From positions 52,241-116,240 of IMG/VR virus record IMGVR_UViG_3300033146_001917: DNA of 64,000 bases; one strand, given 5' to 3'. How positions within the stretch are numbered: the stretch's first letter is position 1; the number at the start of each line of letters is the position of its first letter. Below the pieces are notes generated by a model, which ran no database searches, had not been told where the DNA came from, and was given only the letters and a program-made list of their open reading frames with translations. The translations under genes were made by a program, and so were the position numbers. The DNA comes from a virus. Shown piece after piece: positions 747-60,752 of this stretch.

Positions 747-749
747 TAG

Positions 750-941
750 TTATCCTTCGTGGTTTAGGTTATTCCATTTACTCCATGACAAATTAGGAGT
801 TCCTGACCATGATGGTAATTTAATTAAATTAGCAGAAGTTGCATTACAGTGTTTGCATCTATCAGTTATTTTATCTGATGTAATTAAATACTCTTCTATC
901 TTTCCACATTTTTTACATTCGTAATCAAAGATACGATACAT
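750..941 (-). CDS. FmdB-family zinc-ribbon protein
   Basis: MYRIFDYECKKCG...CKHC; start moved to ATG 941, which overlaps the upstream stop (TAATG). Confidence 0.7.
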   Translation of the reverse strand: MYRIFDYECKKCGKIEEYLITSDKITDRCKHCNATSANLIKLPSWSGTPNLSWSKWNNLNHEG

Positions 942-45796: not shown

Positions 45797-48700
45797 TTAC
45801 CTATTCTTTAATAAATCATTACCATCTAATTGTAAAAAATTACCAGTAGGATTGAACCAATTATTGGGATGAATCATATTACTCAAATGATCAGCATACA
45901 ATTCGTAATCTTCATCAAGATTATGGAACCAAGTTCCAACACCCTGGATAAAGCTACCTTTGTTATGTTTGATAGGAAGTCCACCTAGCATAGCTTCGGT
46001 GTGCATAACCAAAGGACTATATCTAAATGCTTGGCCTAATTGAGTAACAGTCATTACTTTTTTAAAAATAAATTCTGCTGTAGGATGATCTAAGCCTGTA
46101 TAAAGACTTAGGGCAATACCATAAGCACTATAATCATCAAATCCCTTTGCTAAGGTATTCATTATTGATGTTGCAGTTGCTGTACGCTCATCTGATTTAT
46201 CAGAACTAGTTAATAAATTTATTGGATGAAGAAGATTTTTTACAGCAACACTACTGACCAACCCCATTGCGTCTTCTGTTGACATAGTAACTGTTTCATT
46301 AGTATGAATAACCATGTCAGGAGTAATAGATGTTATGAATCCATCTTGTTGATTAAATTTGTGTACAACTTGTTCTACTTCGATTTGTCCATACATTTCA
46401 TTATATTCATCATAGATATAACATATATCATATGGTTTGATCGAAGGATTACCCATGACAATGATTTCACCACGATATCCTTCTTTTAAGCTACTCTTTA
46501 ATAATGCAGCACTGTAATGTCGTGCCATATTTGCACCAATACAATTAGGGTATTGAGCAAACATTTCTTTTTTCTCATTATCTGGAATACCTGTTTCACA
46601 AGACAAAGTAAGTGTTTCTACATCATCAAATTCTAAAGTACCAGTTTTTGTATTAGTATCTGCACTATTATCTTCGTATTGCAGCGTGATAGTATTGAAT
46701 GTATTCCGATTAGAAGACACAATAGAATTATTAATTATATGATGACTACTAGTAAGAATGTGATATGACCTAAATGGTCGTATAATGCCAGACGTAAGAG
46801 CAGCTTTCTTTATGAAACGATCTACCCAAACGTCTTTAACAAAATGCTCTACATCTGGATTCTGATTATCAAATTCATTTTTAATACTATTTATTATAGT
46901 AGAGCTTATATTTACTTCCTTAAGGTTATTTAAAAGTTCTTGCGTGGTTGTATTACGTGATTCTTGCCATTTATCTAAAGCAGTTTGTAATTTCATAAAC
47001 TGTGTTTGTTCATCAATACTACCATCTCTAGCTCGGTACAGCTGATCTGGTAACCCGAAATACATTGTCATTCTAGGACCAAAATCTCCTTCATATGGTA
47101 CAGTAGACATTATGTATCCAGGGTGACGTAATGTCATTTCTTGAGCAACATCCCATATAGTAGTATTGTACATAACATAATCAGGATTATCATCTGGGAA
47201 CCATAGACCTGGATATGGAATCAAGTGTGTCCAATCCCAAAAATTAATAGACGAATAAGGTGCGAAAATATTATCGTCTTGAGGTTGTTTATTAATAGTC
47301 CATCTATCTTGTATTATACTTCGAATGATATCAGATCTTTCTACTTTTTTTGCTTTTGTATCTTTAGGCTCGAAATGTCCAAAATGTACTACTTCGGATG
47401 ATGATAATAAATCTTCAAGTATATTCCCAGTCCATCCGTCACCACGACCTATAATATGACCTCCATAGCTTCTTGGATCGTGCATTACATTTTGAACTAA
47501 TTCTATAGCGAAACTTTGACATGTAATTTGAATCACATCATTAGTACCAGAAAATTGCACATCTGTGATGACACCATTAAATGGTACATCTAGATTATCG
47601 GGATTATTGTCATATCCTAAGCGTAACTGAATCTGAGTTCCAGGTTGTAACATTAGTGATGTTATCTTATTTTCGTTAACAGTATTTGTTCCAGTATTGT
47701 CATACCCATTTTCAAGTTGTTTCTCAATTTTTTCGAATTTTCTATTACTTAATATACCGGATACATTGGTTAATTGAATAACACATAAATCAGCAGGAAT
47801 TTTCCTGCTTCGAATCATCTGCACATTGGTCACATGTGAATACGAAAAGAAATCATCAAATCCAAATACGCTTCGTTCTCCTAGATCGGATTCAATAAAA
47901 TATAATTTATAAGTAGGATAGGCTCGAAGTATAGAGTTGCCCTGAGTAATCAATTCATTTTCTAATTGATTTACACTTTGTTGAATTAATGAGGGGTTAC
48001 TATAATCTTGTTTCGTATTGGAAGTAATAGAATTTTGTTGTGGGTAACATGTACGTAATACATCTTTAGGATTAATTGCTTTATTATTACGTAGTACTTC
48101 AAAGTGCAAATGAGCCCCTTGGCTACGTCCAGTATTTCCGACACTACCAATTTGTTGCTGAAGATTAATTTGTAAATAAGAATCCCTGTCTGTGGTTATT
48201 TGTTTCCAACCAGGTTTTTTCCAAAACACAGTAGATATATTATTAATAATTTCATCCCATTGCATGTGCAGGTACCGAGTAGAATACTCACGATCATATT
48301 TTATTACGATATGTACACCGGTTCCGCCATTTTTAGAATTTTTAGTTCGATTAGTTGCACTATAAGATACTGTTACTACAGTGCCTGTAGTTGCTGACAA
48401 AATGGGTTGTCCTTCTGTCTCTTTGGTATCGTATGCAAAAGCAATGTCAATACCTTTGTGAGGACGAGACGCTACTGATTTGGGTGGTTTATCTGGGTGG
48501 TCAGCATTCCATTTAGCATTTACTGGATCAGATCTATTTAGTGAAAATTCACTAGTCACTACTCTTCCATGACTATCAAGAGGCCAACAGCATATAAATG
48601 AATTAAATCCTTGCCCTTGTTCTTCAAGGTCTCCACTTGTTTGTAATGCGGTAAATGGATCAAAATAATGAGTTGGTATATAGCCAAGTGTTTCTGGGGG

Positions 48701-51619
48701 CTCTAATGAGTACGACTTCCAGTAAGTTTGTGACTGGTTATATATATCAGTGGTTGGAGTATTGTGTTTAATCTCAATTGGATTATTTGTTTCAGCACTA
48801 GCTATAATAGATGATGTTATTGAACCGCCATCTATTGCTTCTGGGTATAGAAAATAAGATCCATCTATTTTGTCATTAATTGTTTTGTATGCTTTTTTAA
48901 GGCCTTCGTTGTCACCATCCATTATTTTTTGACGTTTAGCTACTATCTTACGTACTTTCTTTTCAGAACCTAATCCAGTAAATCGAGCTTCTTGTACACG
49001 TTTTGCTTTATCAGCTCCTAATACATGTTTAATATATATATTTTGTAACCAATCTTTTTCCGCTGCATGACGTTGCTCTGTAGTGGATTTAAGTATAGCT
49101 TGTGTAGACATTTTAAGAGAATGTGGAGAAATCAAGCTCTCTTGAGATCCAGTAGTTGTAGGATATAGATAAAAATCTGGATTAAGAGCACTCGCCGGAG
49201 AAATATTACGAATGCCTAAATTCTCGGCATCTGCAAGATCATTTAAAGCGTTAGCTACATCAGTGTAACGTGTATCAGACTGTAAAATATTGTATAACTC
49301 GTTTAAAGGAAAATCAGGATAGGCATTAGATGTTGATTTCAAACCTTGTTTTCTGATCAAGTTACGAACAGGATCAAATATATCTAAAGCTAACAACGGT
49401 GATGCAGACAAATTATCTAAAAAATCATTTATAAATTTGTTCCAATCACTTAACTGACTACGTATTAAATCATATCTAATATAATTATAATCTTGTCCTA
49501 TATTTGATAAATATTCACGATACTGATTGTCTTGTACAGAAGTAGTTGAGTTACTAATAGCATCATACGTTAAAATTGTATCTGCTATGTCACTCAATAC
49601 ACTAAACTGATCTTTTCCTACACTGTATGTACGGTATTCCCCCTCTTCCAAATAATATGATGTATCTGGTTCAGTATTGTATTCTGTATTTGTTAATATG
49701 TGTTGTACGTATCCATTTTGGGATATAATTTTCCACACATCTTCTTGTATACGTGTAATACCAGTTACATCATTTTCGGTAAGAGTTAAAAAAGCTATTA
49801 ATTTACGTTCAAATACTGAAAAATGCATTCCTTTTTCGGTACCTGAATTACGTACAATAGCAGCTTTACCATATCCTGATTGCAAATCTTTAATTAAATT
49901 GCCTACTATTTTACGTAAATTGGTAGATAATTCATCTACTAATTTACCTAATGCTTCGTTACGATCATCGTATTTATTACACTTATAGTATGATCTAAGC
50001 CAATATGATTCTGGTAAATTTCGACTTGTATTGTAATCATCTTTGTTATTATGCTGTACTGTCGCTATAAGGTTAAAACCACTTGATACATTAACTAATG
50101 GATTAAATTTCAGTTCATTAGATAAAATATTAAATAATTCTTGTCTAATATCTGTATTGGTAGTAAAAGATACTCCAGATTCAAGTGATTCTTTCGTTGA
50201 TCTAGTAATAGGATTATCTATTAGGGTTAATTTAATAGATGTGGTACCAGGCTGACCCTTAACCGTATTAATAGACATATTTTCAAATATAAATTCATTC
50301 AAACCACAAGCATTGACTAATGTATTAGTTATTCTAAGATTCTTTTGTCCAGATGGTATCCATCTGTAATTATGAGCTTGCGAATCTTGTAGAGCATATA
50401 ACTTAGTAAGTTCTTTAACCGCTGTATCTTCCGTTGTCATTAAGGATAATGTAAATACAGCATCTACACTTCCAATATGTTGATAGGTAGGATATTGATG
50501 ACCAATAAGAGGAACCCGCGCCAAAATATTATTAAAAGCAAGAGACAACCCGATTGGGATCAATCCAATTTGTTCGAAATTAAGGACGATGTCTTTTTTC
50601 TTGAGTACTTGATCTTTACCTGTACTTGGTTGTGCATCTATATCTATTTTTTTTGAATCAATTGTTGATTTTTTAATCTGAAATACAGTAGCTTTATCGT
50701 CCGATGTAAGTACTACAGGAGTCCATCCACCATTCTCGCTAACTGCATCTTTCATATTTGCAACTCTACATTCTCGATCTAGAATCATATCCTCAAGTAC
50801 ACTACGTATTTGAGAATCGTCTAAACGAGATCCCATGCTGGTTGTATCACCTAAATTTGCTAATTGTATATTTATGCCGCTATCGTTTAATTTATTTTGA
50901 ATAGCTTCACGTAAGTCAGAATCAATATTAGTAAACTCGGATGGACTAGAATAATCAAGTGGTATTGATGGATCCATATTATTTACTATGGCTTTTAATT
51001 TATAGGCTTGATCATTAAGTTTTGTATATTCAGCTTTGTCCACAAATACAAACTGAGTAGTAGCTAGTTTAATTGCATTGTCCAAAGATACAGTACGTCG
51101 ATATAAAGGACGTCCTTCGTATTTACGAGCTTGTTCGCTGGTATAGAGTAATTTCCAGGCACGTGAATCGACTGGATTTGGAACTGACTTATTCGAAAAT
51201 ATATCTTCACGAAATCTAAAGTTAGGAGAATAAGGAAGATAATTAAACCATACAAATGTTAAAGCTACTTGTAACCTATTTGTATTTCCACTAACAGTCA
51301 TTATCTCCATTTGCTGTAGTGCGAGCACCATTGAACTTGTAGCGTCATTTAATATACTTTTTCTAATAAATTCATTTTCTACCCATACAAATGGAGTCAC
51401 GCGAATCTGACTAACAAAATCTGTTAATTTAGGGAGATCATTTTCTACAAGATTTAATATCATAGAAATTTGAATTTCGGCAAATCCAGAACGTAATTTC
51501 TGCGATGATCTAGTTCGTAATGTTTGCCAAAAATTATTATATGATTTTCTTTGAATACTGATTTGGTCTGGTGGAACAATAAATTCTATATCGTTTAATT
51601 GGCAGCGTCCTAATTTCAT
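45797..51619 (-). CDS. baseplate hub / central tail protein with M23 peptidase domain
   Basis: HKGID...TRYLH...IGSVGNTGRSQGAHLHFEV (about 48070-48590); LRLGY...FNGVIT hub motif; GNPSIKPYD C-terminus. Confidence 0.8.
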   Translation of the reverse strand: MKLGRCQLNDIEFIVPPDQISIQRKSYNNFWQTLRTRSSQKLRSGFAEIQISMILNLVENDLPKLTDFVSQIRVTPFVWVENEFIRKSILNDATSSMVLALQQMEIMTVSGNTNRLQVALTFVWFNYLPYSPNFRFREDIFSNKSVPNPVDSRAWKLLYTSEQARKYEGRPLYRRTVSLDNAIKLATTQFVFVDKAEYTKLNDQAYKLKAIVNNMDPSIPLDYSSPSEFTNIDSDLREAIQNKLNDSGINIQLANLGDTTSMGSRLDDSQIRSVLEDMILDRECRVANMKDAVSENGGWTPVVLTSDDKATVFQIKKSTIDSKKIDIDAQPSTGKDQVLKKKDIVLNFEQIGLIPIGLSLAFNNILARVPLIGHQYPTYQHIGSVDAVFTLSLMTTEDTAVKELTKLYALQDSQAHNYRWIPSGQKNLRITNTLVNACGLNEFIFENMSINTVKGQPGTTSIKLTLIDNPITRSTKESLESGVSFTTNTDIRQELFNILSNELKFNPLVNVSSGFNLIATVQHNNKDDYNTSRNLPESYWLRSYYKCNKYDDRNEALGKLVDELSTNLRKIVGNLIKDLQSGYGKAAIVRNSGTEKGMHFSVFERKLIAFLTLTENDVTGITRIQEDVWKIISQNGYVQHILTNTEYNTEPDTSYYLEEGEYRTYSVGKDQFSVLSDIADTILTYDAISNSTTSVQDNQYREYLSNIGQDYNYIRYDLIRSQLSDWNKFINDFLDNLSASPLLALDIFDPVRNLIRKQGLKSTSNAYPDFPLNELYNILQSDTRYTDVANALNDLADAENLGIRNISPASALNPDFYLYPTTTGSQESLISPHSLKMSTQAILKSTTEQRHAAEKDWLQNIYIKHVLGADKAKRVQEARFTGLGSEKKVRKIVAKRQKIMDGDNEGLKKAYKTINDKIDGSYFLYPEAIDGGSITSSIIASAETNNPIEIKHNTPTTDIYNQSQTYWKSYSLEPPETLGYIPTHYFDPFTALQTSGDLEEQGQGFNSFICCWPLDSHGRVVTSEFSLNRSDPVNAKWNADHPDKPPKSVASRPHKGIDIAFAYDTKETEGQPILSATTGTVVTVSYSATNRTKNSKNGGTGVHIVIKYDREYSTRYLHMQWDEIINNISTVFWKKPGWKQITTDRDSYLQINLQQQIGSVGNTGRSQGAHLHFEVLRNNKAINPKDVLRTCYPQQNSITSNTKQDYSNPSLIQQSVNQLENELITQGNSILRAYPTYKLYFIESDLGERSVFGFDDFFSYSHVTNVQMIRSRKIPADLCVIQLTNVSGILSNRKFEKIEKQLENGYDNTGTNTVNENKITSLMLQPGTQIQLRLGYDNNPDNLDVPFNGVITDVQFSGTNDVIQITCQSFAIELVQNVMHDPRSYGGHIIGRGDGWTGNILEDLLSSSEVVHFGHFEPKDTKAKKVERSDIIRSIIQDRWTINKQPQDDNIFAPYSSINFWDWTHLIPYPGLWFPDDNPDYVMYNTTIWDVAQEMTLRHPGYIMSTVPYEGDFGPRMTMYFGLPDQLYRARDGSIDEQTQFMKLQTALDKWQESRNTTTQELLNNLKEVNISSTIINSIKNEFDNQNPDVEHFVKDVWVDRFIKKAALTSGIIRPFRSYHILTSSHHIINNSIVSSNRNTFNTITLQYEDNSADTNTKTGTLEFDDVETLTLSCETGIPDNEKKEMFAQYPNCIGANMARHYSAALLKSSLKEGYRGEIIVMGNPSIKPYDICYIYDEYNEMYGQIEVEQVVHKFNQQDGFITSITPDMVIHTNETVTMSTEDAMGLVSSVAVKNLLHPINLLTSSDKSDERTATATSIMNTLAKGFDDYSAYGIALSLYTGLDHPTAEFIFKKVMTVTQLGQAFRYSPLVMHTEAMLGGLPIKHNKGSFIQGVGTWFHNLDEDYELYADHLSNMIHPNNWFNPTGNFLQLDGNDLLKNR

Positions 51620-51621
51620 GA

Positions 51622-54600
51622 TTAGTTAAATAAGTTATTACCAGCAAGAAGTGTATCTATACTAGAATAACTGCTCCTATTATTTAGATTAACAGTTGTA
51701 GATCCATGTGTCATACGTTGCATCAAGGTAGTTAATTGATCTGTATTAATATTAGTATCACCATAACTTTGAATTGTCATGTTACGCCCCATGCTGGATA
51801 ACCGTGTAGAATTCTGATGCATCATTTGTGGTACGGTAGGACTACCTGATGGATGTGGTGACATTATATCAGAAGGACGCAAATTTGATGCTGCTTTGCC
51901 TCTACTCACATTCATATCCATAGATTGATTTAATATAGATTTAGATCCAAGTGATTTAGGTATGGAATGCACTGATGGAGCATTATGCTTAAAATTATTT
52001 TGTTGATGTTGCTCAGGTTGTGGCTTGAATGATTTTTGAGCAGGCCGACGTGATGAGGGTGATTCGTCAGTATCTAGCTTCCTGCGAGGACGTGAACTAG
52101 GTGTGATTGTATCGTTAGTTGATCCAAGAGCCATCATTAGTGCAGTTGACCCAATGACTCCAGCTCCTAATAACACTTTGTGCTTAGATATATGCTTACC
52201 TAGCGCAGTAAGTATATTACTTTCAGCAAGATGACTTGCACTTTTCTCGGCATACTTGCCAGCATTAGCTAGATTTTCTTTAGCTAATTGTCCTGCAGAA
52301 TGTTCTGCTCCACTAACAGCTTTTGTATAACTATTTGCTGTATCGTCTATTAAATTTCCTCCATGTTGTGAAAGAACATCTAGGTAACGAGACATATTGC
52401 CTATTTTAAATGGAGCACCTCTTCCAGCTAACTGATTTGATATGCTTATTGAACCTTCACTAATCCTAGTTCTCATTGATGACATAATATTTTCAGCTGT
52501 TTGCTTTAAATCAATACCAGGAAGATGTTCACCAATTTGCACTCCAAAACCACTTTCAACTTCAGCTATATTTTCTATATCTAATCCCTTAGTAATAGCT
52601 TGCTCTAACATAGAACCATGATTAACATTAAGCATCTCGTTAACCAGTTCATGTAATCTATGCCCATCATTTGTTTTACTTGATCTCATAATGTTAGATA
52701 AAATAGACATATGTGCTTCTAATTTATCTGCACTACTATGTTTAGAAGATATTGGACTTTGCTCTAGGTAAGTAATCAATAATTGCGCATTTGAAAGAGA
52801 CTGCCCAGATAAATTTTCTAAGACCGCTTCGCGTGCTTGTGACATAACTGTAGAAATTTGTGGTGTCCATTTTTGAACTATACCTAATTTCTTAATGTCT
52901 TTAGCCATCTTTAAATCAGCCATTACGTTCTCTAATTGAGAACCAGCTCTTTGTGGCTTAACTAATTGTTGTCTGAGTTGATTACGCGCCTGTTCAATTG
53001 AGTAAGTACTTTCTCTTAATCCTGTTCCTAATTTAGGAGCAATAGTTTTATGCATCTTTTGTTCTAAATCAGGATTCACTAATACTATTGCATTTGTATC
53101 AGCATCAAAGTCGCCAGCATTATTAATAATATTACTAATCATAAAGTCTTTAGCATCAAATCCCTTAAACTTAACTTGTTGCATTTTGGCGGGAATCATA
53201 GCTACTGGTTCAGTAATATTTTTAGACGAACGTATATTAATTATCTGACTAGAAAATGCATTAATACCTGGATGTCTAATATTTATAGCAGCTATAGTCT
53301 CTGTTCCTGATAACAGTCTACTTCTCATTGCTTTAAATTTTGTAGCATCTTTTACAAAAGGTTCTAACTCGTTAAGCATTTGTTTGGCTTGATTATGTGG
53401 AATTATAAATGTTTGGGATAAGTCATTTAAAGCTCGTGTAGCTTTTGGAGATGAACCTACTGCTGGTACCGAAGTAAGGAAACGACTACCTAACATTTTG
53501 CCACGATACATTCCGCCCATACCCTTACCAAGTGGGGTGGAATGAGCTTGAAGTACAGGCATTAGTATTTCATCAATATGACTAGCAGCCGACTTGTCAC
53601 TGTAGTGTTGAATAGATCGAGTTACATCATGAAATGATCTGTTTATTCCATTTCGAATAGTATTCCCCTCAAAAGTATTTATATCTTGAAGAGGTATCAT
53701 AGTTTTTTGGCTAGGTACATAAATATGTTTTGCTACTTGTTCTTTTCCAATCTTTTCTGTATGTTGTATCCAACCACCTTCAGGACCAATACTTTGTAAC
53801 CAGTTATTAAAATCACGTTTAGAATAATCACGTGATTTTATATTCCAAACCTGTGCATCTTTGCCTGGAGTAAATCGGCCCTCTATTGAAGCTAAGGTTT
53901 TAGTTAGCTCTTGATGAACAGCTTTTTTGCTAGGTTCAGTAACATCAACACGATGTTCTAGTTCTCTGCGAATTTCTTCTCCTAAATCTTCAAAACCGGC
54001 TCCATGCAAATGCTCTGACAATCTAGGTTCCCAGGAACCCATTTTCCCAGCACCTGTATATTCCTTGGGATTACCATAATGTAATTGCACATTACCTGAT
54101 GCTATACCCTCCGACGCTGCATCAAACTCTTGATTAGTAAGTGCAACATCATCAGCTAATTGAAAAAATTTATCATCACCTAACACCAATGGTATTGCAC
54201 CAAATGTTTCTCCAAATTCATGCTTACTTAGCTGAAGTTCGTTACGAGAATAATTTATTAAATCCTTGATTAATGCAGTATGGTCAGTAATACCATTAGT
54301 AGTAGCACGTTGCTCAAACTTACGCGCAACACCATGAATATCTGACACCAATTCATGCATTGCAGTAGTTCTGCCATTAGCTATATTAGTTGCATTAACG
54401 TCAAAATTACTCTGTCGATGTTTGGCAATATTGCGCATATTCGTAAGCATTTGCTGTGTGTGTAGGCTTTTGTTTTTCCTTAGTTCATCCATACTTACGA
54501 TCACTTGACTTCTCGCACCGAGAAATGGACTTTTATCAATATCTAAATCGTTTATATGCTTGGTTAAAGTTTTATTGCTATCGCGTCGTATCACAGCTTT

Positions 54601-56400
54601 TACACTACCAAAGAATTTTTCCCATCTTGTCATCTCACGTTTTTCTTGTGCGAATATTGTAGCAATATTACCGGCACCCTCTTTAACATGGGTAGTTGAA
54701 TATAAATACTTTTTATTTTTTTCAACAGATACTGCTTTGCCAGTATCTGAATATCCTAGCAATGTACCGACTTGTAGTTTACTCCCTCTTTTATCACGTA
54801 TCATTTGCATAGCATCAGCATTTACACGTGTAAGATTCAATTCTACAATACGTTGTTGTGCTAATAAGTCTGCTGCTTGGTTTTTCATTACTCCACCACC
54901 TTCTGTTAAACCTAAATCTTGAATGATTTGAGGATGTGTAACAGGATCTATATATAGAGTAGGTAATGATGGAGCTATATTTTTTGTTCTAACACCTGTT
55001 ATGTCTTTTATATATTTAGGTGAGTATTCTGCTTTATCTAATTCGTTATTAATAATGAATCTATTACTTGGTGTAGCTACTGGTTCCCAATTTCTTATAA
55101 TTTGATCTGGACGTCTACTAATATCTACCTCATTAGGTGTCATACTCCACTGCCTAATATCTAGTCCACTATCCATGTATATACCATTAGCAATTGCCGA
55201 AGGACTAGTACCTCCTTTAAGTCTACCAGTCTCAATAAGAGAAACGGCTTCGCTAGATGTGATAGGCCTGTATTTAGTTACATAGCCTCCTTCCTTAGAT
55301 ATCCAGTCCTGCTCTTCTGTAAGTACTTGTACTTCATGTGATTTTAATTTTTGGAAAGCACGACCACCCGCGTCAGGAAAAACATCTGGAATATTAGGTA
55401 CTGATTCTAATTCTTCGAAGACATGAGATTGCAAATCCTTAACTGCACGTTGAAGTTGTACATCATTCATTGTGCCATTATTTACTTGAGGAACAATTCT
55501 GTTCGTAAATTCATGAAGCAAGTATTCTTCGCGATTCCAACTTTGTGTAATAGCTTTAGTTTTTGGATCGTATATTTTTACTCCAGGCGCTATATAACGT
55601 GTCTTAAGAGTTGTACCACGTAACATAGTTCCATCTTTTGTAATAGGTAATTCTAATGATATATCTTTCTCAGGAAATTGAAGTGAATAAGAGCTACGAT
55701 CAACAAACACTGAGTTTGTTGTTTCAAAAATATGAGCTGATCCTAAACTCTTATCGATCTTATCAAGATATGGTTGTAAATGAGCTGGAAGTTTGTCACG
55801 AGGTATTATGCTAGCTGTAGTGTTGTTGATTGGTGTAGATAGTTCAATAGCTCCAATATTGGCAGGTTTAGCCAAATCATCAAATTGCGCCCAATGAGAT
55901 CGAGCGGCATTTATATTATGCTTAAAAGTTCCAAATATACTATTTGATACACGCGTATTTCCATGTGCTCCTTGTATTGCAATAGTTCTCTGTAAACCTT
56001 CAAATGATTTAACAGCATTCAATTCAGCTAAAAACTGATCTTTAGTAAATTGATCTAACCGAGATTCTGATTCTATTGCTAATTGCCATGCTTGTTTGGC
56101 AATATCTGTATGACGTCCAATAGGAGTACGCTGTAATGTACTAGATGACAAATCTCTAATATATTGAAGATTCATTTCTAGTTTAGATATATCTGGAGAT
56201 ATAGGTGAACTAAAAGTACTGGTAGCAACAGTGTTAAGATTTAATTTACTGGAAGCTACAGCACTAGCAGCAGATGAGACTTGAGAATCAACATCTTGAA
56301 AAGCTTGCCATGCAACAAATGCACTAGTACTAATTATAGGAGTAGCGGTAATTGCAGTACTTACAAATCCTAGACCACTAGAATTTTGATTGTCTGTCAT
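51622..56400 (-). CDS. putative single-chain two-barrel (DPBB) virion RNA polymerase
   Basis: beta'-like RGKMLGSR (aa ~966), NIRHP (R1042), AGDFDAD (D1097-D1101); beta-like TEGGGVM, EKFFGSVKAV (K595/K601), QVIVSMD. Confidence 0.65.
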   Translation of the reverse strand: MTDNQNSSGLGFVSTAITATPIISTSAFVAWQAFQDVDSQVSSAASAVASSKLNLNTVATSTFSSPISPDISKLEMNLQYIRDLSSSTLQRTPIGRHTDIAKQAWQLAIESESRLDQFTKDQFLAELNAVKSFEGLQRTIAIQGAHGNTRVSNSIFGTFKHNINAARSHWAQFDDLAKPANIGAIELSTPINNTTASIIPRDKLPAHLQPYLDKIDKSLGSAHIFETTNSVFVDRSSYSLQFPEKDISLELPITKDGTMLRGTTLKTRYIAPGVKIYDPKTKAITQSWNREEYLLHEFTNRIVPQVNNGTMNDVQLQRAVKDLQSHVFEELESVPNIPDVFPDAGGRAFQKLKSHEVQVLTEEQDWISKEGGYVTKYRPITSSEAVSLIETGRLKGGTSPSAIANGIYMDSGLDIRQWSMTPNEVDISRRPDQIIRNWEPVATPSNRFIINNELDKAEYSPKYIKDITGVRTKNIAPSLPTLYIDPVTHPQIIQDLGLTEGGGVMKNQAADLLAQQRIVELNLTRVNADAMQMIRDKRGSKLQVGTLLGYSDTGKAVSVEKNKKYLYSTTHVKEGAGNIATIFAQEKREMTRWEKFFGSVKAVIRRDSNKTLTKHINDLDIDKSPFLGARSQVIVSMDELRKNKSLHTQQMLTNMRNIAKHRQSNFDVNATNIANGRTTAMHELVSDIHGVARKFEQRATTNGITDHTALIKDLINYSRNELQLSKHEFGETFGAIPLVLGDDKFFQLADDVALTNQEFDAASEGIASGNVQLHYGNPKEYTGAGKMGSWEPRLSEHLHGAGFEDLGEEIRRELEHRVDVTEPSKKAVHQELTKTLASIEGRFTPGKDAQVWNIKSRDYSKRDFNNWLQSIGPEGGWIQHTEKIGKEQVAKHIYVPSQKTMIPLQDINTFEGNTIRNGINRSFHDVTRSIQHYSDKSAASHIDEILMPVLQAHSTPLGKGMGGMYRGKMLGSRFLTSVPAVGSSPKATRALNDLSQTFIIPHNQAKQMLNELEPFVKDATKFKAMRSRLLSGTETIAAINIRHPGINAFSSQIINIRSSKNITEPVAMIPAKMQQVKFKGFDAKDFMISNIINNAGDFDADTNAIVLVNPDLEQKMHKTIAPKLGTGLRESTYSIEQARNQLRQQLVKPQRAGSQLENVMADLKMAKDIKKLGIVQKWTPQISTVMSQAREAVLENLSGQSLSNAQLLITYLEQSPISSKHSSADKLEAHMSILSNIMRSSKTNDGHRLHELVNEMLNVNHGSMLEQAITKGLDIENIAEVESGFGVQIGEHLPGIDLKQTAENIMSSMRTRISEGSISISNQLAGRGAPFKIGNMSRYLDVLSQHGGNLIDDTANSYTKAVSGAEHSAGQLAKENLANAGKYAEKSASHLAESNILTALGKHISKHKVLLGAGVIGSTALMMALGSTNDTITPSSRPRRKLDTDESPSSRRPAQKSFKPQPEQHQQNNFKHNAPSVHSIPKSLGSKSILNQSMDMNVSRGKAASNLRPSDIMSPHPSGSPTVPQMMHQNSTRLSSMGRNMTIQSYGDTNINTDQLTTLMQRMTHGSTTVNLNNRSSYSSIDTLLAGNNLFN

Positions 56401-59400
56401 TAGAACAAATCTCCTAAGTTAGGCATTGACGTATCATGATGATTAATAGTTATAGATGTTTCGTCATCACCAAATATGGAGTGTGAAAATATAGTACCAT
56501 CAATATTGTTCGCCAATAGTAATTCATTAACTTTATCACGCATAACTCTATTTGATAGATTTGGAGCTTCTAGTAATTCTTGTATTGCTTCATCATTGAT
56601 GTAAGGTTTATTCATTAATTTTTGAGCACGAGATTCCCACAAACCATAGTCATGTATATCTTCGCCAAGCGTTTGAACTAATTTTAATTTTACATCATCT
56701 AAGTCTACCGAAGGATGAAACCCTACCCAGTCGGGTCCAGGAAGATTAGGTAGATGAGGTAATAACTTAACGCGACGATACCAATCAGCATAGTTCTCAC
56801 CTGCTTTCTTTGACCCATTATATTCATCTAGTAAGTCATCAGTCACAGGTAATCCCTCTGCCCACTTTTCAGATGATATATTTTTTAAATAATTGTCAGC
56901 AGCTTGTATTTGACTCTTACTGAGAGTATTTGTTTTCTGTGCTCGAACTATTTCATCAGCAAAGTTAAGCTTCCATCTAGCTAGATATATCGCTTGCTCA
57001 TTTTTGGGAATCATTTCAAGTATCCGATGTCGTTCCTGTTCTGTTTCTGCACTACTAAAAACTTCTAAATAGTCTCGTTCTTCTACAGGAAGAGCATTAG
57101 CAATAGAAGAAAAATGAGAAGTAAAAGGATTAATACCAAACAGAGTTTGATCTTTTCGCTTCTCGAATATTTTTGTTGCATATTTATCGTTTTCGGAACG
57201 AGCCATACTGGCTAGACGTGTATTCTTAACATATTTAAGGATGTCAAAATACTCATTTATTTTGCGTTTAGATTCAATATGGCTAGGGACTCCCTCGTAT
57301 CCAAATGATTTAGCAGCTAAGTAAGAGGATGGTCTTAAAAAATCCTTAATAGGATTTTGCCAGAAAGCATTGTGTGTTCCATATAATTGGGTACGTTCAT
57401 AATCTTCCTCAGCTGTTCGTTGATGTACTAGTTTAGCTCCTGGAGATACAGGGGTCATTTGATCGAATGTAGTTTCAGCATTATGTGATAATGCTTCCCA
57501 GTATCCTCCGAATATTTTTGAGAACATACCATGTTCTTCTTGTTGATTAGCTTTAGCTTTGTTTATCTCTGCTAGTAATCCTGAACTATCTTCTCCGGTA
57601 TAGTATGTATTGGAAGAAAAGTCTCCCGCCGCAGATAAATATTTGTATTTATTAAATTCCTTTTTCTTTTTGCGTTGTTCTATATGTGCTAATGACTCTT
57701 GATATAACTCTTCATTATGATCAGTCCAGTCTGGTTTTTTTCTAGCAGCCCTTATCTTATATAGTGACTCCTTGTATTTTTTACTAAAAGGAGCCACGTC
57801 TGAAAGAATTTTGAATTGGTGAATTAAAGGATATGCTTCAGGAGATAGACCTTCTAACTCTGAAAATCTAGCAGTATATCCATCACCAGGTAACCGTAAT
57901 TCACCTTCTGGTATGAGAGAATAAGGATCCCCGTGCCGAAAATCTACAGAACGTGAGCCTGGACCTGGGAGCCAATTTGGCATTGTGTTACGGATAGGAT
58001 TATATAGGGGTACCTGATGCTGTCTATGAGGATATAAGCGACGTGTTACCTCACTAGTGCCAAGCATACCACCTAGCTCTCGATCCCAATAGTCTCGTTC
58101 TGCTCCAAACATGCGACGTGCAGATTCAAGTTGAGTTGTCTGGTCAAATAAATCTGGAGTTCCTGTTAATGCTTGTTTTGTAGAAGTGGCTATAAATCCT
58201 GGCAAACCTGATAATTCGGTAAGTCTATATACTTGATCACTAATGGTGCTTTTTATACTGTAAGGAGATACAGGAGCAGGTCCTGCAGTTTCACCTATTT
58301 CTGTAGCAATACGTTCTCCGTATTTACTTGGTTCTGCAATAGGTCCATCTTTCCCCATCCATTCAGATTCGTGCATAAGTTTTGGAGGTTTAATTAGCCT
58401 ACCTAAAGTATTAGATAAGATAGGACCTAATAATGGTACATCAGCGAATGGAAGAGATGATATAGGATATGGTCGGTCCCTATAATGTTTTTCTTCTAAC
58501 TCGTAGGTAAATTCTTGTCTATAGAGTTTACCTAATGGAGTTATCTCATCTTCATTATTACCCCAAATAGATTTCTCTTTAGATCTATTTCTAAGACGAG
58601 CATACCAGTGTGGTCTATAATAAGATACTTTATCTCCTTCATATGCAGAATTATGTACGAGAAAAGCCCCCGCCTGAAAAAAATGTTTTTCATGATCTAC
58701 TTCGAAATCATATACTAGTCCCGAGTAATTACTTTCTTCTATTTTGATAATTTCACTATAGACAGAATCATCAATAATAATACTACCAACAGTATCAAGA
58801 GAAAAATCTAATTTAGCTGGAATACAAACATAGTCTCCTAATACTATTTCTTCGGCGGGAATCTCTTCTATTTTTCCATGCCTAAGTACAGGTACTATAT
58901 GATTACCAGTTAATCCTGTTGGTAACTCTGGATCATAAGCTGTATAAAATTTCTTTATCTTACCTGTAAATTGTCTAACAAAAATATGTTTAACTACTGC
59001 GGCTTCATGATTGATACCTACCAACCAATCTCCGATTTCAATATCTCTAGCTTCTTTAGTAGTGTTGTTATATAACGCACAAGAAGTATCAGAGATAAGA
59101 CATTTACCAAATTCCCACCATCTTCCTTTTCTGACTTCTACTTCTTGCTTACCAGAGTAAATATCCTCTAACTCATCTCGTGTATATTCTGGAAGAAGAG
59201 CACCAGGTATAAATGGAGTAACTAACGCTGCACCAGCAATACTGCCAGCAAAAGCAGCAAGTTTAACAGGACCCATACGACCAAATATTTTAAATGTTAA
59301 TTCTGGTGTCTTATCTGAAATTGGCTTAGCTATTTTTCTCCAAATATTTCCCATGAATGTTTGTTTAGAATAGAGTCCAGAACCGTGAGTTAAATATTTA

Positions 59401-60752
59401 CCTACATTACTTAATAAAGTATCTTCACCATATTGAGCTAGTTTCTTTTCTGCTATCATTCTAGCTTCAGCAGAAGTTCTTCCACTATTTATCTGTTCTT
59501 GAATCATCATTCTTGATTTAGTTAGATATGCTAGACCTCCAGCACCAATGGCACCCATTATTGGAAAAGCAGATAATTTTATGAGCGAGGTACTGCCGGG
59601 TGCTATATCTTCTTGGGTATCTCTATAGGTATGCCCTCCAACAGCTTCAGACATAGACGAAAGAGCTAAATTGCCCTTAGCCCACATAGTTGCTGCAGCT
59701 ACTGTAGTGCCTTCCTCTAACATAGTACCATTAAAGATAGTAGATTGTCGGACTCCCCAGTCTAACATCTTGTATCCCATATATGCAGCAGGCAATACGA
59801 AACCAAATTTCTTGGTCATATTGAATAACATTCTACCGCCAGTAGAATCTTTTACACCAAGATGTCTGAGATACTTAGTAATACTTTCAGGAAGGAATCC
59901 CCCAGGATCTTTTAGTAAGCGATTAAATCTACCTACAAATTCTGTATTCCATGCTTGCCCCCAGCGAGTAGTTATTTCAGCACGAGATTGTCCACCTACA
60001 ATCTGAATTGGTAATCCATCTATCATTGGATTAGCCACATTTTTCATTTTGGTGTGCATTGCGTATGGATGTTCAAGAGTAAAGAAACGCTCTGGAGATG
60101 GAGTCTCTGATCCAACAACTCTTGACCATGCAGCCCCTATCCAAGAACTAGCATACATTCCTGCTTCAGTTTCTGTTTCAGGAGATGAAAGAACACTGCG
60201 AATAGCTCCAGCATATTGTAGAGCTACTTTGTCACCATGTCCCCAAAATAGTTTACCGTCACGAAGTGTTACTCCATGTTCAACAAGAGAGACTTCAGTT
60301 TTAACTGAATCGCCTATTAATTTAGATAAATACTCGCGATAGCCATGATTGCTACCAAGTAATTCACCAGATATATGATGAGATCCAGATACAACTGTAG
60401 ATTCAAATTGAGAAAAGAAATTAGCTGCCTGAAATGTACTTAAAATACGTCCAGGAGAATATTCTTCAACACTGTGTAACCCTTGTAAGTAGAAATCACC
60501 AAGACGTTTAGGTTTTCCATCAACTGTTACAGGGATAAATCCACTAATTAAAGCAGTGGCAGCAGCAGCCCCTGCCAAGAATATAGATGTTCCAGACCTA
60601 TCATCATCATAAAAATTTTTAGGAGGGTCGGTTCGCCAAGATGTAGGCTGTTCGGATGGATCAGATATAGATGGTCCATAGTATTCGCTACCATGACCAG
60701 AACTATACTTAGTAACACCAGTATCAAAACTATGTATTTGCGGATATTGCAC
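56400..60752 (-). CDS. tape-measure-like / ejected virion protein with mini-intein
   Basis: 1450 aa directly downstream of the chaperones; Ala/Gly-rich hydrophobic stretches; RKGRWWEFG|intein|..YEG; NPIRNTMP.WLPG..GDPY..IPEGE.RLPG; GTG start. Confidence 0.6.
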   Translation of the reverse strand: MQYPQIHSFDTGVTKYSSGHGSEYYGPSISDPSEQPTSWRTDPPKNFYDDDRSGTSIFLAGAAAATALISGFIPVTVDGKPKRLGDFYLQGLHSVEEYSPGRILSTFQAANFFSQFESTVVSGSHHISGELLGSNHGYREYLSKLIGDSVKTEVSLVEHGVTLRDGKLFWGHGDKVALQYAGAIRSVLSSPETETEAGMYASSWIGAAWSRVVGSETPSPERFFTLEHPYAMHTKMKNVANPMIDGLPIQIVGGQSRAEITTRWGQAWNTEFVGRFNRLLKDPGGFLPESITKYLRHLGVKDSTGGRMLFNMTKKFGFVLPAAYMGYKMLDWGVRQSTIFNGTMLEEGTTVAAATMWAKGNLALSSMSEAVGGHTYRDTQEDIAPGSTSLIKLSAFPIMGAIGAGGLAYLTKSRMMIQEQINSGRTSAEARMIAEKKLAQYGEDTLLSNVGKYLTHGSGLYSKQTFMGNIWRKIAKPISDKTPELTFKIFGRMGPVKLAAFAGSIAGAALVTPFIPGALLPEYTRDELEDIYSGKQEVEVRKGRWWEFGKCLISDTSCALYNNTTKEARDIEIGDWLVGINHEAAVVKHIFVRQFTGKIKKFYTAYDPELPTGLTGNHIVPVLRHGKIEEIPAEEIVLGDYVCIPAKLDFSLDTVGSIIIDDSVYSEIIKIEESNYSGLVYDFEVDHEKHFFQAGAFLVHNSAYEGDKVSYYRPHWYARLRNRSKEKSIWGNNEDEITPLGKLYRQEFTYELEEKHYRDRPYPISSLPFADVPLLGPILSNTLGRLIKPPKLMHESEWMGKDGPIAEPSKYGERIATEIGETAGPAPVSPYSIKSTISDQVYRLTELSGLPGFIATSTKQALTGTPDLFDQTTQLESARRMFGAERDYWDRELGGMLGTSEVTRRLYPHRQHQVPLYNPIRNTMPNWLPGPGSRSVDFRHGDPYSLIPEGELRLPGDGYTARFSELEGLSPEAYPLIHQFKILSDVAPFSKKYKESLYKIRAARKKPDWTDHNEELYQESLAHIEQRKKKKEFNKYKYLSAAGDFSSNTYYTGEDSSGLLAEINKAKANQQEEHGMFSKIFGGYWEALSHNAETTFDQMTPVSPGAKLVHQRTAEEDYERTQLYGTHNAFWQNPIKDFLRPSSYLAAKSFGYEGVPSHIESKRKINEYFDILKYVKNTRLASMARSENDKYATKIFEKRKDQTLFGINPFTSHFSSIANALPVEERDYLEVFSSAETEQERHRILEMIPKNEQAIYLARWKLNFADEIVRAQKTNTLSKSQIQAADNYLKNISSEKWAEGLPVTDDLLDEYNGSKKAGENYADWYRRVKLLPHLPNLPGPDWVGFHPSVDLDDVKLKLVQTLGEDIHDYGLWESRAQKLMNKPYINDEAIQELLEAPNLSNRVMRDKVNELLLANNIDGTIFSHSIFGDDETSITINHHDTSMPNLGDLF
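58650..59102 (-). mobile_element. mini-intein (151 aa, Hint only)
   Basis: CLISDT start, LTGNH block B, VYDFEV block F, FLVHN end followed by Ser. Confidence 0.9.

What the first reader, a model, noticed from the sequence alone, without database searches (positions are those of the whole stretch)
51622..56400. Putative single-polypeptide two-barrel virion RNA polymerase between tape measure and baseplate hub
Seen: the 1592-aa ORF carries, in the cellular order, matches to both catalytic barrels of multisubunit RNA polymerase. Beta-like: TEGGGVM (~aa 500), EKFFGSVKAV (K595, K601; cf. GDK..GRHGNKG), QVIVSMD. Beta'-like: RGKMLGSRF (aa ~966; cf. GKRVDYSGR), FIIPHNQA, INIRHP (R1042; cf. NRAPTL), AGDFDADTNAI (nt 53112-53098; cf. 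NADFDGD). Established: single-chain two-barrel RNAPs occur in phages (SPbeta YonO, virion-packaged gp66 of crAss-like phi14:2, and the tape-measure-fused RNAP of Thermus phage P23-45). Inference: a highly divergent RNAP with a DFDAD variant, translationally coupled (TAATG at 56400) to the tape-measure-like gene of a contractile-tail phage, packaged and ejected with the tape measure to transcribe early genes.
Basis: partly seen in the sequence, partly recalled or inferred. Interest (0 to 1): 0.9.

Follow-up and report, generated by a model that had tools for sequence, protein, structure and literature searches.

The report
Hidden RNA polymerase in phage tail module
A 1592-residue unannotated gene among the tail genes of a large uncultured contractile-tailed phage is predicted to fold as a one-chain copy of the cell-type RNA polymerase with its catalytic residues strictly conserved, so the phage probably carries its own transcription enzyme into the host, although packaging and activity are not shown.

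Summary
The protein matches nothing in Pfam, PHROGs, PDB sequences or 50,697 phage records. It does belong to a metagenomic family of at least 175 clusters, most about 1450-1550 aa. In 78 full-length members that are only 18-33% identical to it, 11 columns are invariant. Three of these are the aspartates D1097, D1099 and D1101. K595, K601, R1042 and P1044 are invariant or nearly so.

AlphaFold2 models (pLDDT 83 and 86) support the RNA polymerase reading:
- Residues 250-840 superpose on the second-largest RNA polymerase subunit (beta/Rpb2), Z 12-14.
- Residues 840-1350 superpose on the largest subunit (beta'/Rpb1), Z up to 11.3.
- The whole core superposes on single-chain QDE-1, RDR2, P23-45 gp96 and phi14:2 gp66.

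The gene has a fixed neighbourhood: 14 of 16 related viral loci show the same three giant genes in a row. It sits where Bacillus phage 0305phi8-36 has its virion "tape measure" gp146, shares that protein's C-terminal motif, and has one C-terminal membrane helix. The two-barrel polymerase fold is well supported. Virion delivery and early transcription are inferred only. This scan has flagged similar genes in other genomes.

The parts
51622..56400 (-). Whole ORF, 1592 aa (P0001): single-chain two-barrel RNA-polymerase-like protein.
   Evidence: Searches confirm the ORF. The family has 175 representatives at E<=1e-3.
55654..56400 (-). N-terminal region, aa 1-249. It was not modelled, has a hydrophobic start, and is conserved only in patches (consensus AW..A....DP).
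   Evidence: consensus. No Pfam hit.
53881..55653 (-). beta/Rpb2-like half, aa 250-840, containing the lysine-bearing barrel.
   Evidence: Model ma9f5793b1759 has pLDDT 83.3. Model residues 1-590 align to E. coli beta 127..1312 with 420-477 residues at Z 12-13.3, and to the AR9 and phiKZ non-virion RNAP chain C at Z 13.2-13.9.
54598..54618 (-). K595...K601 (KFFGSVK): the two conserved basic residues of the beta-like barrel.
   Evidence: K595 76/78 and K601 74/78 plus 4 R. In the larger set, 124/129 and 122/129. They lie in predicted strands E344-349 and E353-358 of the model.
54022..54030 (-). E791-P792-R793, an invariant motif near the end of the beta-like half.
   Evidence: E791 78/78, P792 76/78 and R793 78/78.
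52351..53880 (-). beta'/Rpb1-like half, aa 841-1350. It holds the aspartate-bearing double-psi beta-barrel followed by long helices.
   Evidence: Model m081d1b294876 has pLDDT 85.7. Foldseek top hits are AR9 7s01_d (E 7e-5), vaccinia Rpo147 and beta' chains. In the wide search, 7ob9_A scores Z 11.3 over 349 aligned residues, 2pmz_A Z 10.9, and gp96 8h2m_A Z 8.9.
53482..53505 (-). R966-G-K-M-L-G-S-R973 (family consensus RGKxxGSRF).
   Evidence: R966 67/78, G971 76/78, S972 74/78 and R973 50/78.
53269..53277 (-). R1042-H-P1044.
   Evidence: R1042 77/78, H1043 66/78 (D in 11) and P1044 78/78.
53098..53112 (-). D1097-F-D1099-A-D1101: the candidate metal-binding triad.
   Evidence: All three aspartates are 78/78. 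Position 1100 is A in 49 and G in 22 of 78. The loop lies between predicted strands of the barrel. DNA read.
52738..52764 (-). E1213-Q-S-P-I-S-S-K1220-H1221 at the end of a long helix pair. It may belong to the bridge-helix or trigger-loop region; that assignment was not tested.
   Evidence: E1213 78/78, K1220 78/78 and H1221 71/78. The helices are H912-947 and H950-972 of the model.
52117..52179 (-). Single predicted membrane helix, aa 1408-1428.
   Evidence: Kyte-Doolittle scan. The family consensus here is KPLxxGFAxxLALAAxLSxP.
51643..51789 (-). C-terminal motif, aa about 1538-1586, shared with the C-terminus of 0305phi8-36 gp146 (annotated 'hypothetical tape measure', a virion protein by mass spectrometry).
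   Evidence: hhalign probability 64%, E 6e-5. hmmsearch 24 bits. The genome search 28.3 bits, E 4.5e-8. gp146 annotation.
56398..56402 (-). TAATG stop/start overlap with the upstream gene.
56400..60752 (-). Upstream partner gene (P0002, 1450 aa). It has three hydrophobic segments in its first 520 aa and a mini-intein at about aa 546-701. It is a homologue of 0305phi8-36 gp145 (virion protein) and ME3_35.
45797..51619 (-). Downstream gene (P0003, 1940 aa): baseplate hub with an M23 peptidase domain.
   Evidence: Peptidase_M23 54.7 bits. PHROG endolysin and baseplate hub hits. Homology to the 0305phi8-36 gp147 and ME3_37 hubs.

Best explanation
P0001 is a very diverged, single-chain member of the two-barrel (double-psi beta-barrel) RNA polymerase superfamily. 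Residues about 250-840 correspond to the beta/Rpb2 subunit and supply two lysines (K595, K601). Residues about 840-1350 correspond to beta'/Rpb1 and supply the Mg-binding triad D1097-x-D1099-x-D1101, preceded by R966..G971-S972 and R1042-H-P1044. That part is shown by structure prediction and conservation.

The following steps are inferred. The enzyme is made late with the tail proteins and built into the virion in the slot that related phages use for the tape measure. Its C-terminal motif anchors it near the baseplate hub. It is expelled through the contracted tail together with the upstream membrane-active giant protein P0002. Its single C-terminal membrane helix holds it at the entry pore. 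There it transcribes the first genes of the incoming DNA independently of the host polymerase, as shown experimentally for P23-45 gp96 and for crAss-like gp66.
For: Family and conservation:
- The family has 175 representatives at E<=1e-3, 94 of them at E<=1e-30.
- 11 columns are invariant in 78 sequences that are 18-33% identical to the query. They include D1097, D1099, D1101 and P1044. K595, K601, R1042, G971 and S972 are at 90% or more. The same holds in 150 sequences.

Fold:
- The AF2 models are confident: pLDDT 83.3 with pTM 0.85, and pLDDT 85.7 with pTM 0.82.
- Foldseek of the whole core against PDB listed 49 rows. 46 are RNA polymerase chains with probability 0.98-1.00 and 3 are RND pumps with probability 0.14-0.21.
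- VIA re-alignment gave all 50 listed rows as second-largest RNAP subunits, Z 12.1-13.9, over model residues 1-590.
- For the C-terminal half alone, every listed Foldseek row is a chain of an RNA polymerase entry. In the unfiltered search of 48,161 chains, the 12 best hits are largest RNAP subunits or P23-45 gp96 (Z 11.3-8.4). Isolated DPBB domains follow (CDC48-N, a designed DPBB) at Z about 8 over model residues 127-300.
- For the whole core in the unfiltered search, all 17 best hits are two-barrel polymerases. Single-chain ones span both halves: QDE-1 Z 11.7 over 444 aligned residues, RDR2 Z 11.4 over 464, P74 gp62 Z 9.0 over 412, gp96 Z 7.5 over 312, and phi14:2 gp66 Z 6.8 over 493.

Context:
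- 14 of 16 related IMG/VR loci carry the same trio of a P0002-like gene, a P0001-like gene of 1416-1548 aa, and a hub. One locus is cut by its contig end and one has no intact ORF in my ORF call.
- The module is homologous to the contractile tails of 0305phi8-36 and ME3. Tube paralogue, chaperone, gp145 and hub are found in this genome; sheath and tube are found in the complete relative G001.
- The slot equals gp146 of 0305phi8-36, a virion protein by mass spectrometry. Its C-terminal approximately 70 aa match the family's C-terminus.
- There is one membrane helix at aa 1408-1428 and a TAATG coupling to the upstream gene.
- In the complete 188,653-bp relative G001, this is the only RNA-polymerase-like gene detected. 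There were no hits for PF00562, PF00623, PF05183 or PF04542, and there is only one copy of the family.
Against: - There is no sequence-level link to any known polymerase. Pfam, PHROGs, PDB sequences (single protein and profile), PF05183 and PF00623 at E<=10 all gave nothing.
- The argument rests on predicted, not solved, structure. I had no coordinates, so I could not verify that the aspartates and lysines face each other, nor make a residue-by-residue match to the beta and beta' catalytic residues.
- The middle residue of the loop is A in 49/78 and G in only 22/78.
- No evidence bears directly on packaging, on activity, or on whether the template is DNA or RNA.
- A folded core of about 1100 residues is hard to fit inside a tail tube.
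- The positional equivalent in 0305phi8-36 (gp146) has no DxDxD, and that phage keeps a YonO-like polymerase elsewhere (PMC7824862). The slot therefore does not by itself imply a polymerase.
- The contig is only 61% complete.
Confidence: 0.6

Rival explanations
1. It is an active two-barrel polymerase but not a DNA-dependent transcriptase of early genes. It could instead be an RNA-dependent RNA polymerase, a primase-like enzyme that primes replication of the injected genome, or a DNA polymerase in the manner of archaeal PolD.
For: The best single-chain structural matches that span both halves are the RNA-dependent polymerases QDE-1 (Z 11.7) and RDR2 (Z 11.4). A weak protein-language-model lead points to a viral cluster carrying PF05183 RdRP (score 0.78, below the tool's reliable range). 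The fold alone does not fix the template or the product.
Against: All characterised phage members of the superfamily (YonO, gp66, gp96/gp64, and the AR9 and phiKZ enzymes) transcribe DNA (PMC5467207 abstract; PMC10770324 sections read). The phage has its own DnaE-type replicase. PolD did not appear among the 50 listed rows of either wide search, but that does not exclude it.
Confidence: 0.12
2. It is a real polymerase but is not packaged. It would be a non-virion enzyme that happens to be encoded inside the tail operon and transcribes middle or late genes.
For: No proteomic data exist for this phage. The family's sequence diverges faster than its neighbours: 22-27% identity against 41-58% for P0002-like and 38-57% for wedge proteins in the same loci.
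Against: The position between two virion or ejection proteins is strictly conserved in 14 of 16 loci. The C-terminal motif is shared with a mass-spectrometry-verified virion protein in the same slot. There is a membrane helix. The gene is translationally coupled to a structural gene. An enzyme made late with tail proteins cannot serve the infection that makes it unless it is packaged for the next one.
Confidence: 0.1
3. It is an exapted structural protein. On this view a polymerase-derived scaffold now acts only as a tape measure, tail-lumen plug or pore component, and the acidic loop is kept for metal-dependent folding rather than catalysis.
For: It sits in the slot annotated as tape measure in 0305phi8-36. 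Family length is narrowly constrained at mostly 1416-1592 aa. The termini resemble those of tape measure proteins.
Against: The columns kept invariant over sequences of 18-33% identity are the triad of aspartates, the two lysines and R1042/P1044, which are the residues needed for nucleotidyl transfer. Structural proteins rarely keep such a pattern. The predicted core is globular (pTM 0.85), not the extended helical rod of a tape measure.
Confidence: 0.1
4. It is a chance resemblance: the motifs are coincidental and the protein has no relation to RNA polymerases.
For: A DxDxD occurs twice in this protein and only one copy is conserved. No sequence search links it to polymerases.
Against: Two independent models and four structure searches, two of them free of Foldseek pre-filtering, place RNA polymerase subunits at the top for each half, in the right order.
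Confidence: 0.02

Closest known systems
Thermus phage P23-45 gp96 (also P74-26, G20c, TSP4): virion two-barrel RNA polymerase fused to the tape measure protein (PMC10770324, sections 6, 11, 12, 13 read; PDB 8h2m/8h2n)
   Same: Both are single-chain two-barrel polymerases with a DxDxD loop, encoded in the tape-measure position of the tail module. Both have membrane segments C-terminal to the polymerase and no detectable sequence similarity to cellular enzymes. The structural match is Z 8.9 over 213 aligned residues for the C-half and Z 7.2-7.5 over 312-358 residues for the whole core.
   Different: gp96 is 5,002 aa, with the polymerase as the N-terminal fifth of a true tape measure that also carries a metallopeptidase, in a non-contractile-tailed phage. 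P0001 is 1592 aa with only about 240 residues after the core. The M23 peptidase is in the next gene, and the tail module is of the contractile 0305phi8-36/ME3 type. P0001 matches cellular beta and beta' (Z 11-14) better than it matches gp96. Its N-terminal part aligns to beta from residue 127 on. Whether it has a clamp was not determined.
crAss-like phage phi14:2 gp66 virion RNA polymerase (PDB 6VR4; bioRxiv 10.1101/2020.03.07.982082, abstract and term hits seen)
   Same: Both are large single-chain two-barrel enzymes encoded among virion genes, with a DFDxD-type loop. 493 residues align across both halves at Z 6.8.
   Different: gp66 is about 2,180 aa and comes from podovirus-like phages. There is no sequence similarity, and its Z is lower than for QDE-1, RDR2 or the cellular subunits.
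YonO / QDE-1 / RDR clade (Pfam PF05183), including the YonO-like enzyme of Bacillus phage 0305phi8-36 (PMC7824862 passage)
   Same: Both barrels lie in one chain. QDE-1 (Z 11.7, 444 aligned) and RDR2 (Z 11.4, 464 aligned) span the whole core.
   Different: PF05183 gives no hit at E<=10 on this genome or on relatives G001 and G002, although it scores 69 bits on 0305phi8-36. YonO-type genes are not in the tail module.
Multisubunit RNA polymerase beta and beta' (cellular, poxvirus, and the split AR9 and phiKZ jumbo-phage enzymes)
   Same: These are the best structural matches for each half: AR9 and phiKZ chain C at Z 13.2-13.9, E. coli beta at Z 12-13.3 over 420-477 residues, and Rpa1 at Z 11.3. 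The order is the same, beta-like then beta'-like.
   Different: P0001 is a single polypeptide of about 1100 core residues, against about 2,700 for beta plus beta'. PF00562 and PF00623 give no hit. No other subunits or sigma factors were detected.
Bacillus phage 0305phi8-36 gp146, 'hypothetical tape measure protein' (EF583821.1)
   Same: It occupies the same slot between the gp145 homologue and the baseplate hub. It shares the C-terminal approximately 70-aa motif. gp146 is a virion protein by mass spectrometry according to the record's annotation.
   Different: gp146 is 2537 aa, has no DxDxD, and shows no similarity to the polymerase core.

Membership tests
Two-barrel (DPBB) RNA polymerase superfamily | Two double-psi beta-barrel modules in one active-site core, ordered beta-like then beta'-like. 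| tested here: met
   Predicted structure only. The N-half aligns to beta/Rpb2 at Z 12-14. The C-half aligns to beta'/Rpb1 at Z up to 11.3, and model residues 127-300 align to isolated DPBB domains at Z about 8. The whole core aligns to single-chain members.
Two-barrel (DPBB) RNA polymerase superfamily | DxDxD triad of aspartates in the beta'-like barrel (as defined in the PMC7824862 passage). | tested here: met
   D1097, D1099 and D1101 are 78/78 and 139-140 of 141. They sit in a loop between strands of the barrel.
Two-barrel (DPBB) RNA polymerase superfamily | Two basic residues supplied by the second (beta-like) barrel. | tested here: inconclusive
   K595 (76/78) and K601 (74/78 plus 4 R) are conserved and lie in predicted strands of the region that aligns to beta. 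I had no residue-level superposition to show that they are the equivalents of the catalytic lysines.
Two-barrel (DPBB) RNA polymerase superfamily | Bridge helix and trigger-loop region after the aspartate barrel. | tested here: inconclusive
   Long helices at model residues 912-947 and 950-972 are followed by the invariant E1213 and K1220. Alignments to Rpa1 and Rpb1 run to the end of the model. The elements were not assigned individually.
Two-barrel (DPBB) RNA polymerase superfamily | Template-dependent NTP polymerisation. | not testable with these tools
   Needs biochemistry.
Tape-measure-fused virion RNAP (P23-45 gp96 type) | The polymerase is the N-terminal part of a long tape measure polypeptide that also carries membrane and metallopeptidase domains. 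| tested here: not met
   Only about 240 residues follow the core, and they contain one membrane helix. The M23 peptidase is in the next gene, P0003. P0001 is not a fusion to a long helical ruler.
Tape-measure-fused virion RNAP (P23-45 gp96 type) | Encoded in the tape-measure slot of the tail module. | tested here: met
   Synteny with 0305phi8-36 (gp145, gp146 'tape measure', gp147 hub) and with ME3.
Tape-measure-fused virion RNAP (P23-45 gp96 type) | Present in virions and active early in infection. | not testable with these tools
   Only indirect evidence exists: the slot equivalent gp146 is a virion protein by mass spectrometry.
YonO/QDE-1 family (Pfam PF05183 RdRP) | Match to the PF05183 profile. 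| tested here: not met
   No match at E<=10 in the own genome or in G001, G002 and ME3. The positive case, 0305phi8-36, scores 69.1 bits.
Multisubunit RNAP beta/beta' (Pfam PF00562, PF00623) | Match to the Rpb2_6 and Rpb1_2 profiles. | tested here: not met
   No match at E<=10, while the controls ring in 14 of 14 genomes.
Tape measure protein | Extended, mostly helical ruler encoded after the tail chaperones. | tested here: not met
   The modelled 1151 residues form a compact mixed alpha/beta core with pTM 0.85. Only the position and the C-terminal motif resemble a tape measure.

The most novel reading that the evidence does not exclude
A widespread clade of large contractile-tailed phages (relatives of 0305phi8-36 and ME3) has replaced or supplemented the tape measure with a self-contained one-chain RNA polymerase carrying tape-measure-like ends. 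The enzyme would travel through the tail tube, anchor at the inner membrane by its single C-terminal helix next to the pore-forming P0002, and transcribe the entering DNA as it emerges, possibly helping to pull the genome in. In the complete 188.6-kb relative it is the only polymerase-like gene detected. That would make it the phage's sole own transcription enzyme and a lineage of two-barrel polymerases not covered by any current profile.
Probability: 0.35. Interest if true: 0.85.

Novelty: new variant of a known kind. Interest (0 to 1): 0.7.

Why it matters
Injected virion RNA polymerases of the two-barrel type have been shown experimentally only for crAss-like podoviruses and for Thermus siphoviruses of the P23-45 group. 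This gene would extend the principle to large contractile-tailed phages. It defines a family of at least 175 sequence clusters that current annotation calls hypothetical or "minor tail protein". It also has a cultured, testable relative in Acinetobacter phage ME3 (ME3_36; Foldseek E 1e-6 and 4e-6).

If the family is active, many large environmental phages would start infection independently of the host polymerase. It would also add a compact enzyme of about 1100 residues, resembling both beta/beta' and QDE-1, to the debate on how two-barrel polymerases evolved.

Tried and rejected
Searches that found nothing for P0001:
- Pfam gave only two sub-threshold hits, at 16.5 and 13.9 bits against cut-offs of 27.
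- PHROGs gave 0 families.
- tblastn against 50,697 phage records gave no match at E<=1e-5.
- phmmer against PDB sequences gave 0 hits at E<=10.
- The family profile against PDB sequences gave 4 hits at E 0.065-0.72. All were designed helical repeats or Mce proteins matching the N-terminal region; none was a polymerase.
- PF05183 and PF00623 on the own genome gave nothing at E<=10.
- The word-indexed protein search found only one homologue. The first viral-contig scan with the single protein found none. The scan with the alignment found 16.
- The genome-contig scan with the alignment matched 25 pattern stretches, none of them a relative, so no prophage or host clue emerged.
- The protein atlas gave only low scores (0.82 or less). 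One RdRP-annotated viral cluster appeared at 0.78, a lead only.

Search for a second polymerase:
- In this contig (61% complete) and in the complete relative G001 I used the family HMM, BLAST with the ME3 798-aa and 358-aa ORFs, and a DxD[GA]D scan. Nothing was found apart from a DCDGD in a 585-aa ORF (window 21513-23270) lying among the tail-fibre genes.
- PF00940 (T7-type) found nothing, but its control rang nowhere, so that search is uninformative.

The link to ME3_36 is weak at sequence level (hhalign probability 13.7%; hmmsearch 7 bits). It rests on Foldseek against BFVD and on the shared slot, size and motif order.

Literature:
- I made six searches. None returned a paper describing this family or an RNA polymerase in the tail slot of a contractile-tailed phage. 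Only PMC10770324 joins "tape measure" with this polymerase fold.
Supplementary Data 3 and 4 of PMC10770324 (alignments of 23 two-barrel families and a survey of viral genomes) and the supplements of PMC7824862 may already list this family. I could not check.
- Recalled from memory, not from any call: the E. coli motif strings (NADFDGD, GKRVDYSGR, NRAPTL, GDK..GNKG) and their residue numbers.

Fold search absences: PolD was not among the listed rows, and phi14:2 gp66 was not among the rows. Neither family is excluded by that.

Full report
**What is in the sequence**

The ORF 51622-56400 on the minus strand is open for 1592 codons from an ATG. It overlaps the stop of the upstream 1450-aa gene in a TAATG, with an AGGAG shortly upstream. 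It ends 2 nt before the ATG of the downstream 1940-aa gene.

The window is the right-hand 64 kb of a 116,240-bp viral contig judged 61% complete. The left part of that contig encodes a DnaE-type DNA polymerase with an intein, a class II ribonucleotide reductase, RtcB, a CCA-adding enzyme and a ligase.

**No sequence-level match to anything known**

- Pfam gives only two sub-threshold hits for P0001, and PHROGs give none.
- tblastn against 50,697 phage records finds nothing.
- PDB sequences give nothing, either with the protein or with a family profile.
- The Pfam models for RdRP/YonO (PF05183), Rpb1 (PF00623) and Rpb2 (PF00562) find nothing at E<=10, while their controls ring.

**A large, diverged family with a catalytic signature**

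An exhaustive HMMER search with residues 250-1400 found 175 cluster representatives at E<=1e-3. 94 of them are at E<=1e-30, and most are 1430-1560 aa long. Of ten representatives looked up, one carries a source name ("hypothetical protein"); the other nine have none.

In an alignment of 78 full-length members that are only 18-33% identical to P0001, 11 columns are invariant: G549, F733, E791, R793, P896, P1044, D1097, D1099, D1101, E1213 and K1220. Further counts:

| Residue | Conservation in 78 members |
|---|---|
| K595 | 76/78 |
| K601 | 74/78 (plus 4 R) |
| R1042 | 77/78 |
| G971 | 76/78 |
| S972 | 74/78 |

In a 150-row alignment with fragments, the three aspartates are kept in 139-140 of the 141 rows that cover them. 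The one exception is a 475-aa fragment.

A second DxDxD in P0001 (residues 618-622) is not conserved, so the motif by itself would have meant little.

**Predicted fold**

AlphaFold2 with a 53-row alignment gave a confident model of residues 250-1400 (pLDDT 83.3, pTM 0.85). A second model covers residues 840-1350 (pLDDT 85.7, pTM 0.82).

- *Whole core, Foldseek against PDB.* Of 49 listed rows, 46 are RNA polymerase chains at probability 0.98-1.00. Three are RND efflux pumps at probability 0.14-0.21, which I take as spurious.
- *Whole core, re-alignment.* All 50 listed rows are second-largest subunits (beta, Rpb2, vaccinia Rpo132, AR9 and phiKZ chain C) at Z 12.1-13.9. They cover model residues 1-590, for example E. 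coli beta 127..1312 with 420-477 aligned residues.
- *C-terminal half alone, Foldseek.* Only chains of RNA polymerase entries are listed. The top hits are AR9 7s01_d at E 7e-5, vaccinia Rpo147 and beta'.
- *C-terminal half alone, unfiltered search of 48,161 chains.* The 12 best hits are largest subunits (7ob9_A Z 11.3 over 349 aligned residues; 2pmz_A Z 10.9) or P23-45 gp96 (Z 8.9 over 213). Isolated double-psi beta-barrels follow at Z about 8 over model residues 127-300, that is P0001 966-1139, the segment that carries R966 through D1101.
- *Whole core, unfiltered search.* All 17 best hits are two-barrel polymerases. Single-chain enzymes align across both halves: QDE-1 Z 11.7 over 444 residues, RDR2 Z 11.4 over 464, P74 gp62 Z 9.0 over 412, gp96 Z 7.5 over 312, and phi14:2 gp66 Z 6.8 over 493. 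The relative placement of the two halves is therefore also polymerase-like.

These are predictions. I had no coordinates and could not check the geometry of the active site.

**Genomic context**

A scan of viral contigs with the family alignment gave 16 loci.

- In 14 of them my ORF call shows the same run: two to four small genes, a P0002-like giant gene (1266-2123 aa), a P0001-like gene (1416-1548 aa), a hub-like giant gene (1914-2081 aa), three small genes, and a gp6-like baseplate wedge.
- One locus (L009) ends after the P0001-like gene. One (L012) has no intact P0001-like ORF. Two (L008, L015) give identical numbers.
- P0001-like proteins are the most diverged of the block, at 22-27% identity. 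The P0002-like genes are at 41-58% and the wedge at 38-57%.

P0002 has relatives in cultured phages: ME3_35 of Acinetobacter phage vB_AbaM_ME3, and gp145 of Bacillus phage 0305phi8-36, a virion protein by mass spectrometry. tblastn with the tail proteins of these two phages gave two results:
- In this contig it finds the tube paralogue, gp142, the chaperone, gp145 and the hub.
- In the complete relative G001 (188,653 bp, terminal repeats) it also finds the sheath and tube.

The tail is therefore of the contractile 0305phi8-36/ME3 type. The sheath gene of this phage lies beyond the contig end.

**The slot**

In 0305phi8-36 the gene between gp145 and the hub is gp146, annotated "hypothetical tape measure protein". 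It is 2537 aa and a virion protein by mass spectrometry. It has no DxDxD. Its last approximately 70 residues do match the C-terminus of the P0001 family (hhalign probability 64%; 24 bits; 28.3 bits). That phage keeps a YonO-like polymerase elsewhere (69 bits to PF05183; also stated in PMC7824862, passage seen).

In ME3 the slot holds ME3_36. It is 1603 aa, with KFFSVGSK at 632 and GGDHDQD at 1217. Its two BFVD half-models match my model at E 1e-6 and 4e-6. Sequence-level similarity is marginal.

P0001 has one predicted membrane helix (aa 1408-1428), followed by a low-complexity stretch and the shared C-terminal motif. P0002 has three hydrophobic segments in its first 520 residues.

**Transcription strategy**

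In the complete relative G001, the family gene is the only polymerase-like gene I could detect. There was no hit for PF00562, PF00623, PF05183 or sigma-70 region 2, there is one copy of the family, and there is no other DxD[GA]D in a long frame. The T7-type profile search was uninformative because its control did not ring.

**Interpretation**

*Shown, by prediction and conservation:* P0001 has the architecture and the conserved residues of a single-chain two-barrel RNA polymerase.

*Inferred:* it is built into the virion in the tape-measure slot, leaves through the contracted tail with P0002, is held at the membrane by its C-terminal helix, and transcribes the first genes of the incoming genome. 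That behaviour was demonstrated for P23-45 gp96 (PMC10770324, sections 6, 11-13 read) and for crAss-like gp66 (preprint abstract seen).

The ORF is not shown to lie "between tape measure and hub"; by synteny it occupies the tape-measure slot itself. The nature of P0002 is open.

**Comparison with known families and novelty**

P0001 is not a member of PF05183, PF00562 or PF00623 by profile. It is not a gp96-type fusion either, because there is no long ruler and the peptidase is in the next gene. I file it as a new variant of a known kind: a separate family of virion-module two-barrel polymerases in large contractile-tailed phages.

Six literature searches found no description of it. Closed supplements of PMC10770324 and PMC7824862 might list it.

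The scan's own notes hold 91 findings in at least 76 genomes that use the same words (two-barrel RNA polymerase, tape measure, virion, DxDxD). Several follow-ups describe 1423-1661-residue genes in the same kind of slot. This kind of gene has therefore been flagged before on other DNA. A sequence look-up found no look-alike of this protein among those notes, and I did not test them.

Noticed in passing
Acinetobacter phage vB_AbaM_ME3 record KU935715.1, 222114-226849 (loci L038/L039): A 798-aa ORF ends in ...VRNPS. It has the same length as BFVD entry A0A172Q0S6, which matches my polymerase model at E 1.5e-8; that the two are the same protein is inferred from length only. It is followed by a 243-aa Cys-rich ORF and then a 358-aa ORF with DVDGD at residue 59. 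This looks like a second two-barrel polymerase split inside the aspartate barrel by an inserted gene, so ME3 may have a virion/non-virion pair like P23-45.
   Followed up: partly
window 58650-59115 (P0002 aa about 546-701): A mini-intein sits inside the giant upstream tail/ejection protein (Intein_splicing 35.7 bits against a cut-off of 35.8; it starts with C and ends HN|S). A second intein, with a LAGLIDADG domain, sits in the DnaE polymerase outside the window (genome 36961-41694).
   Followed up: partly
window 41738-43333 (-), 531 aa: A baseplate-region protein has a C-terminal GIDFDSD that is also kept in the homologue of relative G001 (GIDFDSDNF). It is a conserved DxDxD in a structural protein, probably a metal site and not a polymerase.
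   Followed up: no
loci L005-L020 versus window 51622-60752: Within the conserved tail block, the polymerase-like gene evolves much faster (22-27% identity) than the upstream P0002-like gene (41-58%) and the wedge (38-57%). The length of the P0002-like gene varies from 1266 to 2123 aa between loci.
   Followed up: no
locus L012 (IMG/VR contig, 13,232 bases held): The P0002-like gene is split into 133 and 1131 aa. No intact P0001-like ORF is called, although tblastn matches residues 397-1434. The cause could be frameshifts, sequencing errors or another genetic code.
   Followed up: no
genome G000 1-47,800 (outside the window): The plus-strand block holds replication and RNA-repair genes: DnaE with an intein, class II RNR, an AAA ATPase, an ATP-dependent DNA ligase, RtcB and a CCA-adding enzyme with an HD domain.
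   Followed up: no
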